UHGV virus genome: UHGV-1847110
Length of the DNA stretch: 17,679 nucleotides
Origin: a virus
Reading direction: 5' to 3' (one strand)
This document shows, one piece after another, positions 9,001 through 12,000 of this stretch. Made by a program: the position numbers. Position 1 is the stretch's first letter. Every line of letters begins with the position of its first letter.

Positions 9001-12000
9001 ATAATTTTTTCGATTAAAAAACGGGGTCCAGTCAGAGGCCAGATATATGCCATGATCCCTGGCCCAGTTAACATCGCCCTCAGGCAGAATTGATTCAAGT
9101 GCATTTTCGACGGGCTCCCACATCATAGAAGCCAGCACCCCATATACACCGGCTTTTCCGATAACGCCCCCGCCTTTACCAAACAATCCGGTAGCGGCAG
9201 TGACCTTGCCGAGTGTGCGCATATCCTTCGTCACAATGCTGATTGATTTAGTGACATCGGTGACCCACTTTGTCGCCATAAAAATGGCGATTGCTTTAAG
9301 GATCGTTTCCCATCCCCCCATAGCCTGGGCGGTGCTATCAATGACTTCCCAGACATTTTTAATAACCGGTCCAACGGTTTCCCAGTTATCAATTATGAGA
9401 TATGCACCACCGACGAGAAGCGCAATTAATCCCTTTGCCGGCGTCATATTCATCACGCTACCCATGATTTTTGTTATGCGTGTCAATGTGCCAATCGCCA
9501 CGCCCATCGTCAGTAATGCCGCACCAGTTTTCGCGATGGTTTTTACGACCTCAGGATTTTCTCTGACAAACGTGCGCACTTCTTCCAGAAAAGGCTTCAT
9601 CTCTTTTATGCCTTCATTGATTGAAGGCAGGAAGGTTTCCCCCAGCGTGGAAGAAATCGCATTGATCTGGTTCTGCAGCAGCAACAACTGATTTTCCGTC
9701 GTCGCGGCACGGGCGGCATATTCTTTCTGCATTGAGCCGCCATACTGCTGCGCATCCGCCACACGATTAAAGTTGGTTCGCAACAAATCCAGATTCGTGA
9801 GTAGAGGCGCGATGGATCCAGAAGATTCCTTGCCGAACAGCTCATTAAGCGCGGCGGCCTGTTTTTCTTTCGGCACTTTCGCCAGAGAATCCAGTACGTG
9901 CAGCATGGCCCCACGGGCGTCTTTCTGCATATCCGCCGCCAGTTTTTTCGGGCTAATGCGCAACGAGCGGAGCACTTTTTTCTGCGATTTGGTGGCAGAA
10001 TCCCCCGCTGTCAGCGACAACATAAAATTCTTTATCCCCGTCGCCGCAATTTCTGATTCCACCCCCATTCCGGCAATGGTTGCCCCCATTGCGGCAATCT
10101 CTCCGGAGGCCACACCCGCAACACTGCCTAAAGGGCCAATACGGGTCACAATATCAGAAATCTTTTTCGCACTTGCAGGACCGGTATTACCAAGATAGTT
10201 AATCTTGTCCGCAAGTCCTGCCACCTCTCCCTGTGTCAGTTTAAAGGCAGTGCGCCACTGTGCCATCATCTGACCGGATTCTTCTGCCGTGGTGTCAAAA
10301 GCCACGCCCATCTTCACGGCATCGTCAGTAAACTGCATCAGCTCGTCACGGGCGATACCAGCCTGACCACCCGCCGCCACAATTTCGGCGATACCTTCCG
10401 CCGACATGGGCAGTTCTGTTGACAGGTCGCGCACCTGCTCCGTCATTGCCTTAAACGCTTCCGGCGTATCCAGACCATCCACCACTTTCCGGACATCCGC
10501 CATTTTTGATTCAAGGGCAATGGCAGATTTGACCGGGAGCGCCAGCGCCCCCAGTACTGCGGTTCCGGCACCCGCTGCGCCCAGAGACAGGCTGGCAAAC
10601 TCCTTTTTAAAGCCTTTCAGCTGGCGCTGCATCCCTTTCAGCGGTGCCGACACCTTATCCACGGCAGTGATGATCGCCTTCAGCTGAAAACTGTCAGCCA
10701 TGCTTCATCTCCTCGTTAATGCGGACGGCCTCGGCTTCCAGTTCTGTAAACTGCGAAATAGCCACCCGTCGCAGCTCCAGTGGATTCAGTTTCCAGAACC
10801 AGGCAACATTGTAGAGTCGTTTCCGGAGGTGCTTCCCGTCTCCGACTGGGTAAAAAAACGCAGGATCTGCATGCTGGTCTTAAAAATATCCAGTTTTGCC
10901 ATCTGCGCCGCCGATGAACGCGGGATCCCCGCCAGCAACGGGATATATTTCAGTGCCACCTGGCTGTCCAGTTTAATACTGCCTTCACCGGAAATAATGA
11001 AAGGAAAACCCAGCGCCTCGATTTCGTCATACGTGGGCTCGCGCAACTCCAGCACATGCAGCATTTCGTTATGCGCTGTCACCGGTTTTTTTAAAACAAT
11101 TTCTGTAACGTTCATTACTGATATCCTCCCTCTTCGCCGTGGAATTCAAGATCTGCCGTGCCTTCTTCGGCATTATGGTTAGCCTCTCCGTGCAGCCATG
11201 CAGCCGAAAGCACATACACCATGCCGTTTGCCAGTTCAGCGGTAATCGTCATCTGGTCTGATGTGGTAATTTTGTCGACCGGAAAGTTTTTGGGCACTTT
11301 AAACGTGCCTTTAACGTAAGGTGACCGCCAGGTCTCCTTGTAATCCACATCCCCTGCCATGCCGACAACATCATCCCGGACATTGGTGTTCATCGGCACT
11401 TCAATGCCACCTGTCAGCGATAACTGCTGACCATCCACTTTAAAAAAACAGGTTCCGGCGATCTTTGCCATTATGCTGACTCCTCTGAATACTGAAGACG
11501 GAACTGGTTAACCACCGCAAAGACACGTAACTGATTAACATAATCCGGCGGGAACAGCGTATTCAGTCGGTTCGGGTTATCCGCATCACGCTCAACTATC
11601 AGATACTGTTTAAACAGATCGTAATTTTCCACAATACCGGCACGCTCCATCTGACGATATGTCGCCAGAAGTTCCCCTTTGATAACGGCAGGAGTGACAA
11701 TCGCCTGCCCCGGACCAAAACGGGTACCATCATTTGCCAGCTTGTGACGTCCGTACTTGCTTGTGATGACCGATTTCAGTTTGCGAAGAACATATGCACT
11801 GGTATGCAGAGTTTCACTGTCCAGATAGCTGTTGTCTGCCACGCCATACGCATTCTTTTTGTAGGTGGTTACAGAACGCTGGATCCGCAACGTGCCGCCT
11901 TCCACATAAGCCGTCGCCACGCCGTGAGATAAAAGGGTCTGCTGCTCTGTCATGATGAATCGCTTACCTTTCGGTGCCGGAAGCATCCCCACCAGCTCCC

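What the first reader, a model, noticed from the sequence alone, without database searches (positions are those of the whole stretch)
10694..10858. Programmed -1 ribosomal frameshift site in the tail assembly chaperone gene
A U UUU UUU slippery heptamer lies in the correct phase 21 codons before the chaperone stop. The -1 frame is open from the slip site for 52 codons and ends with a TGA that overlaps the tape measure start codon. This is the conserved G/GT-type arrangement of tailed phages, here in a Mu-type tail module. The ORF track shows only the short product.
Basis: partly seen in the sequence, partly recalled or inferred. Interest (0 to 1): 0.4.

Follow-up and report, generated by a model that had tools for sequence, protein, structure and literature searches.

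The report
Tail chaperone -1 frameshift site
This is an ordinary, but unannotated, programmed -1 ribosomal frameshift in the tail assembly chaperone gene of a phiP27-like E. coli prophage; it is the same device that phage P2 uses to make its E and E+E' tail proteins.

Summary
On the minus strand, the 109-codon chaperone ORF (10786-11115, Pfam PF10109) contains T_TTT_TTT at 10852-10858 in the X_XXY_YYZ phase, 21 codons before its stop. The -1 frame is open for 52 codons and ends at TGA 10694-10696, 8 nt inside the tape measure gene. The predicted fusion is 140 aa, 16.1 kDa.

Comparative evidence supports the frameshift reading. In 128 of 131 related loci (62 distinct protein sequences, enterobacteria to Burkholderia, Rhodocyclaceae and Acetobacteraceae), an in-phase T_TTT_TTN (once G_GGT_TTT) sits at the same protein position. 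It is followed by a conserved 50-61-codon -1 ORF that has no start codon and usually ends 8 nt into the tape measure gene. The 84-nt "intergenic" stretch evolves as coding sequence in the -1 frame only.

A profile of the fused products aligns end to end with P2 E+E' (hhalign 92%), with the slip sites superimposed. No downstream RNA structure is supported, as is also reported for P2.

Phage Mu itself uses a -2 shift, so this Mu-type tail module carries a P2-type site. It is a new member of a known kind and is of low interest, except that none of the 12 related records inspected annotates the joined product.

The parts
10786..11115 (-). Zero-frame tail assembly chaperone ORF (109 aa, 11.9 kDa; the short 'E-like' product). 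Its ATG overlaps the tail tube stop codon (TAATG).
   Evidence: PF10109 Phage_TAC_7 scores 29.9 bits against a cut-off of 25. phrog_166 'tail protein' E = 9e-24. PGAP names it 'phage tail assembly protein'.
10852..10858 (-). Slippery heptamer T_TTT_TTT (U_UUU_UUU in the mRNA), read as CG[T TTT TTT] ACC. Two tRNA-Phe can re-pair perfectly after a -1 slip.
   Evidence: Position and phase. Among 62 distinct homologous sequences the heptamer is T7 in 35, TTTTTTC in 25, TTTTTTG in 1 and GGGTTTT in 1. The first T is the wobble base of a preceding codon that varies (GGT, CGT, AAT, AGT, CCT, GAT), as do the amino acids it encodes.
10694..10852 (-). -1 frame extension: 52 sense codons (YPVGDGKHLRKRLYNVAWFWKLNPLELRRVAISQFTELEAEAVRINEEMKHG) plus TGA at 10694-10696. 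It has no usable start codon of its own. It is the counterpart of P2 E'.
   Evidence: phrog_32181 E = 4e-6. tblastn finds the extension in phiP27, SfIV, ST64B, YeP1-3 and SfV, among others. Variable sites by -1-frame codon position in the part annotated as intergenic are 10/7/27. Amino-acid identity is 84% in the -1 frame against 53-56% in the other frames, at 81% nucleotide identity.
10694..11115 (-). Predicted frameshift fusion CDS: complement join(10852..11115, 10694..10852), with base 10852 read twice. The product is 140 aa and 16.1 kDa (the 'E+E'-like' product).
   Evidence: A 27-sequence profile of fused products aligns with P2 E+E' over residues 5-136 / 6-139 (hhalign probability 92.4%, E = 5e-7), with GFF aligned to GFL at the slip site. 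In the AF2 model the N-terminal domain (1-90) has pLDDT 81-93, the linker has pLDDT below 50 (segments 92-101 and 107-111), and the extension is helical.
8788..10701 (-). Tape measure protein gene (637 aa). Its ATG is at 10699-10701 and a GAGGAG Shine-Dalgarno sequence lies at 10709-10714, inside the -1 extension. The extension ORF ends 8 nt into this gene.
   Evidence: PF10145 E = 3e-44; sequence. The same 8-nt overlap occurs in P2 (E+E' ends at locus position 858 and T starts at 851) and in most of the 40 genome loci.
11115..11471 (-). Tail tube protein gene, immediately upstream. It supplies the gene-order context tube - chaperone - tape measure.
   Evidence: PF10618 E = 8e-34; annotation.

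Best explanation
Most ribosomes translating the chaperone mRNA terminate at the 0-frame TGA and make the 109-aa chaperone.

A minority slip back one nucleotide when the two tRNA-Phe occupy UUU-UUU of U_UUU_UUU (10858-10852). These ribosomes continue for 52 codons in the -1 frame and terminate 8 nt inside the tape measure gene. The result is a 140-aa protein with the same N-terminal domain plus a helical C-terminal extension. No RNA stimulator appears to be needed, and the heptamer alone sets a low, fixed ratio of the two products.

By analogy with lambda gpG/gpGT and P2 E/E+E', the shared N-terminal domain would coat the tape measure protein. The extension would recruit the tail tube protein so that the tube polymerises around the tape measure, and both chaperones would then leave the finished tail.

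Shown here: the sequence anatomy, conservation of the slip site, purifying selection on the -1 ORF, and end-to-end homology to P2 E+E'. Inferred: that frameshifting actually occurs, how efficient it is, and what the two domains bind.
For: (1) Anatomy: the in-phase heptamer, the 52-codon -1 ORF and the 8-nt overlap with the tape measure gene.

(2) Family and position: PF10109, between the tube and tape measure genes.

(3) Conservation of the slip site: 128 of 131 loci have the in-phase slip site and the -1 ORF. These comprise 80 IMG/VR loci, 40 species-level genome loci, 10 phage records and the window itself, and hosts range from Enterobacteriaceae to Pseudomonas, Burkholderia, Derxia, Rhodocyclaceae, Methylococcales and Acetobacteraceae.

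(4) Selection at the nucleotide level:
- The first T of the heptamer is the third base of a preceding codon that encodes G, R, N, S, P or D. It is T in 61 of 62 distinct sequences, whereas NNT codons make up only 16-49% of codons for those amino acids in the same genes.
- As an internal control, the T7 run in the neighbouring tube gene (11442-11448) is not conserved in homologues.

(5) The 0-frame tail after the slip site varies from 3 to 22 codons and is not conserved, whereas the -1 extension is conserved.

(6) Coding signature in the 84 nt annotated as intergenic: variable sites are 10/7/27 by -1-frame codon position, and amino-acid identity is 84% in the -1 frame against 53-56% in the other frames.

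(7) No independent start: the conserved YNVAWFWKLNP core lies upstream of the only possible start codon in the extension, a non-conserved GVG-position GTG.

(8) Homology to the proven case: hhalign probability is 92.4% over the whole fusion against P2 E+E'. The slip sites align, the product sizes match (140 vs 142 aa) and the overlap with the tape measure gene is the same.

(9) One homologue (L134) has G_GGT_TTT_A with only four T's. This is still a canonical tandem-slippage heptamer but a poor substrate for polymerase slippage.

(10) Literature:
- P2 E/E+E' uses TTTTTTG and has no downstream structure (PMC3091744).
- Lambda gpG:gpGT is about 30:1, and the binding roles of G and T are described (PMC5009743).
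- U_UUU_UUU is shift-prone in E. coli, but less so than A_AAA_AAG (PMC5009743).
Against: - There is no direct evidence of expression: no proteomics, ribosome profiling or reporter data.
- No stimulatory element was found. The downstream fold has z = -0.98 and +0.26, there are 0 compensatory pairs in 7 homologues, and the mean z over 49 distinct downstream 60-mers is -0.5. There is no Rfam hit. Efficiency therefore cannot be estimated.
- The extension does not reach the Pfam model of P2 E' (PF06528) at E <= 0.01 (one search compared). BLASTP against P2 E+E' finds nothing. Homology rests on the profile comparison.
- One relative, Paraburkholderia phage IPK (an UNVERIFIED record), encodes GFF as GGC TTC TTC and has no heptamer, so the site is not universal.
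- A T7 run could in principle also yield the same protein through RNA polymerase slippage.
Confidence: 0.88

Rival explanations
1. Transcriptional slippage. RNA polymerase occasionally omits one U while copying the T7 tract. A fraction of mRNAs then carry U6 and encode the fusion directly, and ribosomes do not shift.
For: - The site is a homopolymer run of 7.
- Assemblies contain T6 alleles in which the fusion is read straight through (P0006, 'MRFYRLGDG'), so tract length is labile at some level, whether by mutation or sequencing error.
- Productive polymerase slippage occurs in Shigella and E. coli relatives (PMC5009743).
Against: - The run is always in the X_XXY_YYZ phase.
- Many homologues have only T6 (TTTTTTC or TTTTTTG), and one has G_GGT_TTT_A with T4. 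From my own knowledge, not checked in the papers read here, productive bacterial polymerase slippage generally needs runs of about 9 or more.
- P2's homologous TTTTTTG site is described in the literature as a translational frameshift (PMC3091744, citing Christie 2002, which I could not read).
Confidence: 0.06
2. The -1 ORF is an independent small gene, translated from its own start codon, and is not fused to the chaperone.
For: - PHROGs holds families of about 63 aa (phrog_32181, phrog_11318) that match only the extension, so some annotators called it as a separate ORF.
- Its conservation shows that it is translated.
Against: - No ORF of 40 aa or more with ATG, GTG or TTG exists in that frame.
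- The only start-like codon is a GTG at the V of 'RRVAIS'. It lies after the most conserved segment (YNVAWFWKLNPLE), and that position is T, A, S or G in homologues.
- The -1 frame opens only 9 codons upstream of the heptamer in the window and at variable distances elsewhere, with no conserved start.
Confidence: 0.02
3. Coincidence. The heptamer simply encodes Phe-Phe, the open -1 frame is a chance or relic ORF, and only the 109-aa protein is made.
For: - In-phase X_XXY_YYZ heptamers are frequent in this window, 31 in 21 genes.
- U_UUU_UUU is not among the most shift-prone sites in E. coli.
- No stimulator was found.
Against: - The joint chance expectation is about 0.008 per gene.
- The heptamer, its phase and the wobble T are conserved across 62 distinct sequences.
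- The annotated intergenic region shows three-base periodicity of substitutions.
- There is end-to-end homology to an annotated, genetically essential P2 fusion protein.
Confidence: 0.02
4. A Mu-style -2 (equivalently +1 frame) shift operates on the T7 run rather than a -1 shift.
For: - Mu, whose tail module is the nearest named relative, is reported to use -2 (PMC2628397). Its +1 frame holds the extension.
- In the window the +1 frame happens to be open for 77 codons around the site.
Against: - The +1 frame is open for only 10-56 codons in the nine homologues examined, and its sequence is not conserved.
- Amino-acid identity in that frame is 53-64%, against 75-84% for the -1 frame.
- The window protein does not match the Mu-specific model PF23746.
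Confidence: 0.01

Closest known systems
Bacteriophage P2 gpE / gpE+E' (-1 frameshift at T_TTT_TTG in the FETUD tail operon)
   Same: - The N-terminal Pfam family is the same: PF10109.
- The slip site falls at the aligned G-F-[FL] position at the end of that domain.
- The T-run heptamer is of the same type.
- Product sizes are similar: 109/140 aa here against 91/142 aa in P2.
- The extension shares conserved positions (L, A, P, A, R).
- The extension overlaps the tape measure start by the same 8 nt.
- Neither has a downstream RNA structure (PMC3091744).
   Different: - Pairwise sequence similarity is undetectable by BLASTP.
- The extension does not reach the PF06528 'Phage_P2_GpE' model.
- The last heptamer base is T rather than G.
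- The 0-frame tail after the site is 21 codons, against 6 in P2.
- The surrounding tail genes are Mu/SfV-type (DUF2635, DNA circularisation protein, Mu-like baseplate), not P2-type.
Phage lambda gpG / gpGT (-1 frameshift at G_GGA_AAG)
   Same: - The gene position is the same, between the major tail/tube gene and the tape measure gene.
- The logic is the same: a short abundant product plus a rare C-terminally extended product.
- Neither lambda product is found in the virion, and their ratio matters for assembly (PMC5009743).
   Different: - It is a different protein family: no Pfam or sequence link was found here.
- The heptamer and the tRNAs involved are different.
- Lambda has a non-contractile tail.
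- Lambda's efficiency is reported to be 2-3 times lower than that of P2-type sites.
Phage Mu gp41 / gp41-extended (reported -2 frameshift)
   Same: - The tail module type is the same: sheath L, tube M, chaperone, tape measure, then DNA-circularisation protein N.
- Mu gp41 has a match to PF10109 just below the family cut-off (24.7 bits against 25).
   Different: - Mu gp41 is 144 aa and matches PF23746, which the window protein does not.
- Its extension lies in the +1/-2 frame after a G-rich site.
- Its extension stops well before the tape measure start rather than overlapping it.

Membership tests
Conserved tail-assembly-chaperone frameshift of long-tailed dsDNA phages (G/GT-type arrangement, Xu, Hendrix & Duda 2004) | The chaperone gene lies between the major tail/tube gene and the tape measure gene. 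| tested here: met
   Gene order is tube (PF10618) - chaperone (PF10109) - tape measure (PF10145) on the minus strand.
Conserved tail-assembly-chaperone frameshift of long-tailed dsDNA phages (G/GT-type arrangement, Xu, Hendrix & Duda 2004) | A second ORF overlaps the 3' end of the chaperone ORF in another frame, lacks its own start codon, and runs up to the tape measure gene. | tested here: met
   The -1 ORF has 52 codons after the slip site. No start codon gives an ORF of 40 aa or more. It ends 8 nt inside the tape measure gene.
Conserved tail-assembly-chaperone frameshift of long-tailed dsDNA phages (G/GT-type arrangement, Xu, Hendrix & Duda 2004) | A slippery sequence lies in the correct phase within the overlap. 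| tested here: met
   T_TTT_TTT at 10852-10858, starting at 0-based gene offset 257 (offset mod 3 = 2, the X_XXY_YYZ phase).
Conserved tail-assembly-chaperone frameshift of long-tailed dsDNA phages (G/GT-type arrangement, Xu, Hendrix & Duda 2004) | The slip site and the extension ORF are conserved among relatives, with purifying selection on the extension. | tested here: met
   128 of 131 loci and 62 distinct sequences carry them. Substitutions by codon position are 10/7/27, and amino-acid identity is 84% against 53-56% in the other frames.
Conserved tail-assembly-chaperone frameshift of long-tailed dsDNA phages (G/GT-type arrangement, Xu, Hendrix & Duda 2004) | Both products are made in a fixed ratio, both are required for tail assembly, and both are absent from virions. 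| not testable with these tools
   This needs expression, genetic and proteomic experiments. It is known for lambda (PMC5009743). The RefSeq P2 record labels E and E+E' as 'essential tail protein'.
P2 gpE / E+E' protein family | The N-terminal domain matches PF10109 (Phage_TAC_7) above the gathering score. | tested here: met
   29.9 bits against a cut-off of 25, residues 6-75. P2 E+E' scores 47.8 bits.
P2 gpE / E+E' protein family | The frameshift extension matches PF06528 (Phage_P2_GpE). | tested here: not met
   There is no PF06528 hit at E <= 0.01 for the fusion, whereas P2 E+E' scores 76 bits on residues 104-139. The extension matches phrog_32181 instead.
P2 gpE / E+E' protein family | The whole fused product is homologous to E+E' end to end, with the slip site at the same aligned position. 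| tested here: met
   hhalign of the 27-sequence profile A4 against P2 E+E' gives probability 92.4% and E = 5e-7 over columns 5-136 / 6-139, with GFF aligned to GFL. The P2 side was a single sequence, so support is moderate.
P2 gpE / E+E' protein family | The slippery heptamer is of the T_TTT_TTN type and needs no downstream RNA structure. | tested here: met
   T_TTT_TTT here and T_TTT_TTG in P2. No structure is supported, and P2 is reported to lack one (PMC3091744).
Mu gp41 (-2 frameshift) family | The protein matches PF23746 (Gp41_Mu). | tested here: not met
   The window protein matches only PF10109. Mu gp41 matches PF23746 at 119.5 bits.
Mu gp41 (-2 frameshift) family | The extension is encoded in the -2/+1 frame. 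| tested here: not met
   The conserved extension is in the -1 frame. The +1 frame is neither conserved nor consistently open in homologues.
Programmed transcriptional slippage sites | A long A/T homopolymer (typically 9 or more, from my own knowledge) whose effect does not depend on codon phase. | tested here: not met
   The run is 7 here, 6 in many homologues and 4 in L134, and it is always in the X_XXY_YYZ phase. Actual transcript heterogeneity was not testable.

The most novel reading that the evidence does not exclude
The T-run may be more than a fixed ribosomal slip site. Its length could act as an evolvable, and possibly polymerase-slippage-assisted, dial for the ratio of short to long chaperone. 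Three observations are compatible with this:

- The run is T7 in the P27/ST64B/SfIV clade and T6C in the SfV clade.
- T6 alleles appear in some assemblies.
- A widespread Shigella flexneri allele has a downstream +G that hard-wires the fusion.

On this reading, natural 'fusion-only' alleles would mark prophages whose tail assembly has been switched off or re-tuned. The data here do not exclude this, but nothing requires it: the T6 alleles may be sequencing errors, and the Shigella allele may be simple prophage decay.
Probability: 0.1. Interest if true: 0.4.

Novelty: new member of a known kind. Interest (0 to 1): 0.18.

Why it matters
The main value is for annotation. The mechanism is textbook, but none of the 12 related records I inspected annotates the joined CDS. 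These were the RefSeq E. coli prophage, phiP27, vB_EcoM-720R4, ST64B, SfIV, SfV, YeP2, AH07, EPP-1, DVM-2008, PG1 and BgVeeders33. All leave an 84-141-nt "intergenic" gap that is really coding. The P2 record does annotate the join.

The survey also shows that the P2-type T_TTT_TTN site and an E'-like extension reach well beyond P2-like phages, into the large SfV/P27/ST64B group of Mu-type tail modules, whereas Mu itself uses -2. The Pfam E' model (PF06528) misses this branch.

Anyone engineering these tails, tailocins or prophage-derived particles needs to keep both products.

Tried and rejected
**Downstream stimulatory structure.**
- Folding the 99 nt from the heptamer gave z = -0.98. Folding the 52 nt after it gave z = +0.26.
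- RNAalifold on 7 homologues of 75-100% protein identity gave 18 pairs with no compensatory change.
- Over 49 distinct downstream 60-mers the mean z was -0.5, and 10% fell below -2.
- Rfam gave no hit at E <= 1.
- I conclude that no structure is supported. The region codes in two frames, so conservation there says nothing about RNA structure.

**Upstream Shine-Dalgarno-like stimulator.** None is evident by eye in the sequence. I did not test this formally.

**Direct similarity to P2 E+E'.** BLASTP found nothing. The profile comparison was needed to see the relationship.

**Structure-based identification.**
- The AF2 model had mean pLDDT 76, with a confident N-terminal domain and a poorly supported extension.
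- Foldseek against the PDB gave no match with E <= 0.001.
- A sequence profile search against the PDB found nothing meaningful.

**Locus search.** The search for related loci with the 11-sequence alignment failed because it had no conserved stretch. A 6-sequence alignment worked.

**Literature.**
- Xu et al. 2004 and Christie et al. 2002 are not held in the library. I could not check whether phiP27, SfV or ST64B are listed there.
- Searches for TTTTTTC or TTTTTTT together with frameshift and tape measure found no paper.

**Other in-phase heptamers in the window.** All are followed by short -1 ORFs, or by a downstream gene's frame, and I dismissed them as chance. The T7 run in the tube gene is not conserved.
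Full report
**What is there**

All genes in this window run on the minus strand. The window matches a phiP27-like prophage:

- The 601 bp around the finding are 100% identical to several complete E. coli chromosomes. In NZ_CP159170 the prophage sits next to tRNA-Ser and hyaA.
- A 2.9-kb query around the finding (8700-11600) is 97% identical, over 85% of its length, to Stx2e phage phiP27.

The local gene order is:

| Gene | Coordinates | Evidence |
|---|---|---|
| Tail sheath | 11471-12967 | |
| Tail tube | 11115-11471 | PF10618 |
| 109-codon ORF | 10786-11115 | PF10109 'Phage tail assembly chaperone proteins, E, or 41 or 14', 29.9 bits vs cut-off 25 |
| Gap annotated as intergenic | 84 nt | |
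| Tape measure | 8788-10701 | PF10145 |
| Mu-type DNA-circularisation and baseplate genes | downstream | |

**Check of the observation**

The minus strand reads ...CTG CGT TTT TTT ACC CAG.... Exactly seven T's lie at 10858-10852. They fall as CG[T TTT TTT], which is the X_XXY_YYZ phase.

- 21 sense codons follow in the 0 frame before TGA.
- Re-reading base 10852 opens a -1 frame of 52 sense codons that ends at TGA 10694-10696.
- The tape measure ATG is at 10701-10699 and is preceded by GAGGAG at 10714-10709. The two ORFs therefore overlap by 8 nt (ATGGCTGA). The TGA lies just after the ATG, not on it.
- The fusion would be 140 aa and 16.1 kDa, against 109 aa and 11.9 kDa for the short product.

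On chance alone: in-phase heptamers are common in this window (31 in 5673 codons), but only 3.75% of positions have a -1 frame open for 52 or more codons. The expectation for the last 40 codons of one given gene is about 0.008.

**Comparative test**

*Phage records.* tblastn with the hypothetical fusion finds it as two pieces in different frames, together covering 88-100% of the query. Identity falls as low as 35%. The phages are phiP27, vB_EcoM-720R4, SfIV, VIT_AJPSC, F1055, As1, ST64B, S.Typ Adana, 118970_sal3, YeP1-3, Pantoea AH07, Edwardsiella EPP-1, Pseudomonas DVM-2008 and Paraburkholderia IPK.

*Nine phage records read in detail.*
- Each has an in-phase T_TTT_TTN at gene nucleotide 249-264, always at the ...G/R/N/S/P-F-F/L motif that closes the PF10109 domain.
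- The 0-frame tail after the site varies from 3 to 21 codons and is unrelated between groups.
- The -1 frame carries a recognisable conserved peptide (..L..R.Y..A.FW+.NP.E......S.....L..QA.RI..E...) and stops at, or a few nt into, the tape measure gene.

*Closer relatives.* 80 IMG/VR loci (75-100% protein identity) all keep TTTTTTT, even where the preceding codon changes from CGT to AAT.

*One genome per species.* 40 loci, from Shigella, Mixta, Pantoea, Erwinia, Lonsdalea, Yersinia and Edwardsiella out to Derxia, Kaistia, Rhodocyclaceae, Methylococcales, Acetobacteraceae and Accumulibacter, all have the site. Each also has a 50-61-codon -1 ORF, most often ending exactly 8 nt into the next long ORF.

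*Pooled result.*
- 128 of 131 loci carry the site, representing 62 distinct sequences.
- Heptamers: T7 in 35, TTTTTTC in 25, TTTTTTG in 1, GGGTTTT in 1.
- The first T of the heptamer is the wobble base of a codon for G, R, N, S, P or D. It is T in 61 of 62 sequences, whereas NNT codons make up only 16-49% of codons for those amino acids in the same genes. This indicates selection on the nucleotide, not on the protein.

*Internal control.* The other in-phase T7 in the window, in the tube gene at 11442-11448 (C-F-F-K), is replaced by TAT TTC, TAC GTC and similar codons in homologues.

**The "intergenic" gap is coding**

I compared 30 distinct 52-codon extensions.

| Measure | -1 frame | Other two frames |
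|---|---|---|
| Variable sites by codon position, 84 nt beyond the 0-frame stop | 10 / 7 / 27 | not computed |
| Mean pairwise amino-acid identity, at 81% nucleotide identity | 84% | 56% and 53% |

In the 21-codon stretch where both frames are open, the -1 frame is again the better conserved (75% vs 64%).

The frame has no ATG, GTG or TTG that gives 40 aa or more. Its only start-like codon, a GTG, lies downstream of the best-conserved segment at a variable position. The peptide therefore has to be reached from the chaperone frame.

**Relation to known systems**

*P2.* The RefSeq P2 record annotates E (91 aa), E+E' (142 aa, joined CDS), "site of -1 translational frameshift", and gene T starting 8 nt before the end of E+E'. 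Reading the P2 DNA confirms GGT TTT TTG, that is T_TTT_TTG in phase, 6 codons before the E stop, and the overlap ATGAGTAA.

- BLASTP between the two fusions finds nothing.
- A 27-sequence profile of the fused products from this study aligns with P2 E+E' from residue 5 to 136 (6-139 in P2). hhalign gives probability 92.4% and E = 5e-7, with GFF opposite GFL at the junction.
- In Pfam, P2 E+E' is PF10109 plus PF06528 ('Phage_P2_GpE', the E' part). The window fusion reaches only PF10109. Its extension instead matches phrog_32181, a family of unknown function of about 63 aa.

*Mu.* Mu gp41 matches PF23746 and, just below the family cut-off, PF10109. Its extension lies in the +1/-2 frame, in line with the reported -2 shift (PMC2628397).

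So the module here is Mu-type in its neighbours but P2-type in its recoding site.

**Stimulatory elements**

None is supported.

- The downstream region does not fold better than shuffled sequence (z = -0.98 and +0.26).
- The consensus fold of seven homologues has no compensatory pair.
- 49 distinct downstream 60-mers have mean z = -0.5.
- Rfam finds nothing.

P2 and its Burkholderia relatives are likewise reported to have no hairpin (PMC3091744). U_UUU_UUU is shift-prone in E. coli but less so than A_AAA_AAG (PMC5009743). That fits a low, constitutive level of frameshifting. P2-type sites are reported to be 2-3 times more efficient than lambda's.

**Mechanism**

Part of this is shown and part is inferred.

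*Shown:* the anatomy, the conservation of the slip site, the purifying selection on the -1 ORF, and the homology to P2 E+E'.

*Inferred by analogy with lambda gpG/gpGT (PMC5009743) and P2:*
- Most ribosomes make the short chaperone.
- A minority slip -1 with two tRNA-Phe on UUU-UUU and make the 140-aa protein.
- The common N-terminal domain coats the tape measure protein.
- The extension engages the tube protein to nucleate tube polymerisation.
- Neither product stays in the virion.

The AF2 model agrees with a two-part protein:
- a confident alpha/beta N-terminal domain (residues 1-90, pLDDT 81-93) whose last helix ends at F87-F88;
- a low-confidence linker (segments 92-101 and 107-111, pLDDT below 50);
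- a helical extension, poorly supported because only three sequences in the alignment covered it.

It has no structural match in the PDB.

**Rivals**

- *Polymerase slippage on the T-run.* This cannot be excluded without RNA data. It is disfavoured by the invariant codon phase, by the many T6 sites, and by one G_GGT_TTT_A site.
- *Independent initiation, coincidence, or a -2 shift.* Each is contradicted by the data above.

**Exceptions**

- L030 has an extra G 27 nt after the heptamer that fuses the frames in the DNA.
- PG1 has T_TTT_TTG with a longer (81-codon) and divergent extension.
- Paraburkholderia phage IPK (an UNVERIFIED record) encodes GFF as GGC TTC TTC. Its -1 frame opens only four codons before the 0-frame stop, so it must use another site if it shifts at all.

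**Verdict**

This is a genuine and well-conserved but conventional tail-chaperone -1 frameshift of the P2 E/E+E' type. None of the 12 related records inspected annotates it. I could not read Xu et al. 2004 or Christie et al. 2002, so I cannot say whether this clade was already listed there. I file it as a new member of a known kind, with low interest.

Noticed in passing
window 10823-10824 (minus strand CCTCCGGAAACG); locus L030; proteins P0001, P0002, P0004: Some Shigella flexneri prophage copies carry one extra G here (CCTCCGGGAAACG), 27 nt after the heptamer. This fuses the chaperone and the -1 extension in the DNA, giving a 140-142-aa ORF ('..RFFTQSETGSTSGKRLYNVAWFWKLNP..'). P0004 is recorded on 661 contigs, including a 4.5-Mb one. 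This allele would make only the long product, and it probably reflects decay of a cryptic prophage.
   Followed up: partly
protein P0006 (SfIV-type relatives); corresponds to window 10852-10858: A few assemblies (9 member sequences, 5 contigs) have T6 instead of T7, so the gene caller reads the fusion directly ('..IVMRFYRLGDG..'). This could be homopolymer sequencing error or real variation in tract length. Other hits (P0007, P0009, P0013, P0014, P0025) show multiple frame switches typical of noisy assemblies.
   Followed up: no
window 11442-11448 (minus strand, tail tube gene codons 8-10): A second in-phase T_TTT_TTT (TGT TTT TTT AAA) lies near the start of the tube gene. A -1 slip there would hit a stop codon immediately. 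The run is not conserved in homologues (TAT TTC, TAC GTC and similar), so it is probably fortuitous. It served as a negative control.
   Followed up: yes
window 11086-11095 (minus strand, chaperone codons 7-10): Overlapping in-phase heptamers T_TTA_AAA and A_AAA_AAA (GTT TTA AAA AAA CCG) lie near the chaperone start. The -1 frame stops after 5-6 codons. They are not present as heptamers in ST64B or SfIV although those phages keep the LKKP peptide.
   Followed up: partly
window 7420-7426 (minus strand): An in-phase C_CCG_GGC lies 12 codons before the stop of the DNA-circularisation-like gene (7381-8772). Its -1 frame is the frame of the next gene (6329-7384), so it stays open for 363 codons. 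C_CCG_GGC is described as a poor frameshifter (PMC5009743), so this is most likely a coincidence of the ATGA gene overlap.
   Followed up: no
locus L089 (Paraburkholderia phage IPK, PV588664.1, UNVERIFIED) about 850-960: This homologue has the conserved -1 extension but no slippery heptamer at GFF (GGC TTC TTC). Its -1 frame is blocked by two stops until 4 codons before the 0-frame TAA (ACT GAG GGC GCG TAA). Any shift would have to occur in that very short window at a non-canonical site, unless the record contains sequence errors.
   Followed up: partly
window 3343-4302 (minus strand) and the distal tail-fibre region 585-3319: In the identical E. coli chromosome, PGAP marks the counterpart of 3733-4302 as an incomplete 'putative phage tail protein' pseudogene. 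It also calls a DUF4376 fragment next to tRNA-Ser. The distal tail-fibre end of this prophage may therefore be rearranged or decayed.
   Followed up: no
loci L084-L093 and Pfam PF06528 / phrog_32181: The Pfam model for the P2 E' extension (PF06528) does not detect the homologous extension of the SfV/P27/ST64B group. In PHROGs that extension appears as a separate 'unknown function' family of about 63 aa (phrog_32181). This suggests that some genome annotations call it as a free-standing small ORF.
   Followed up: partly
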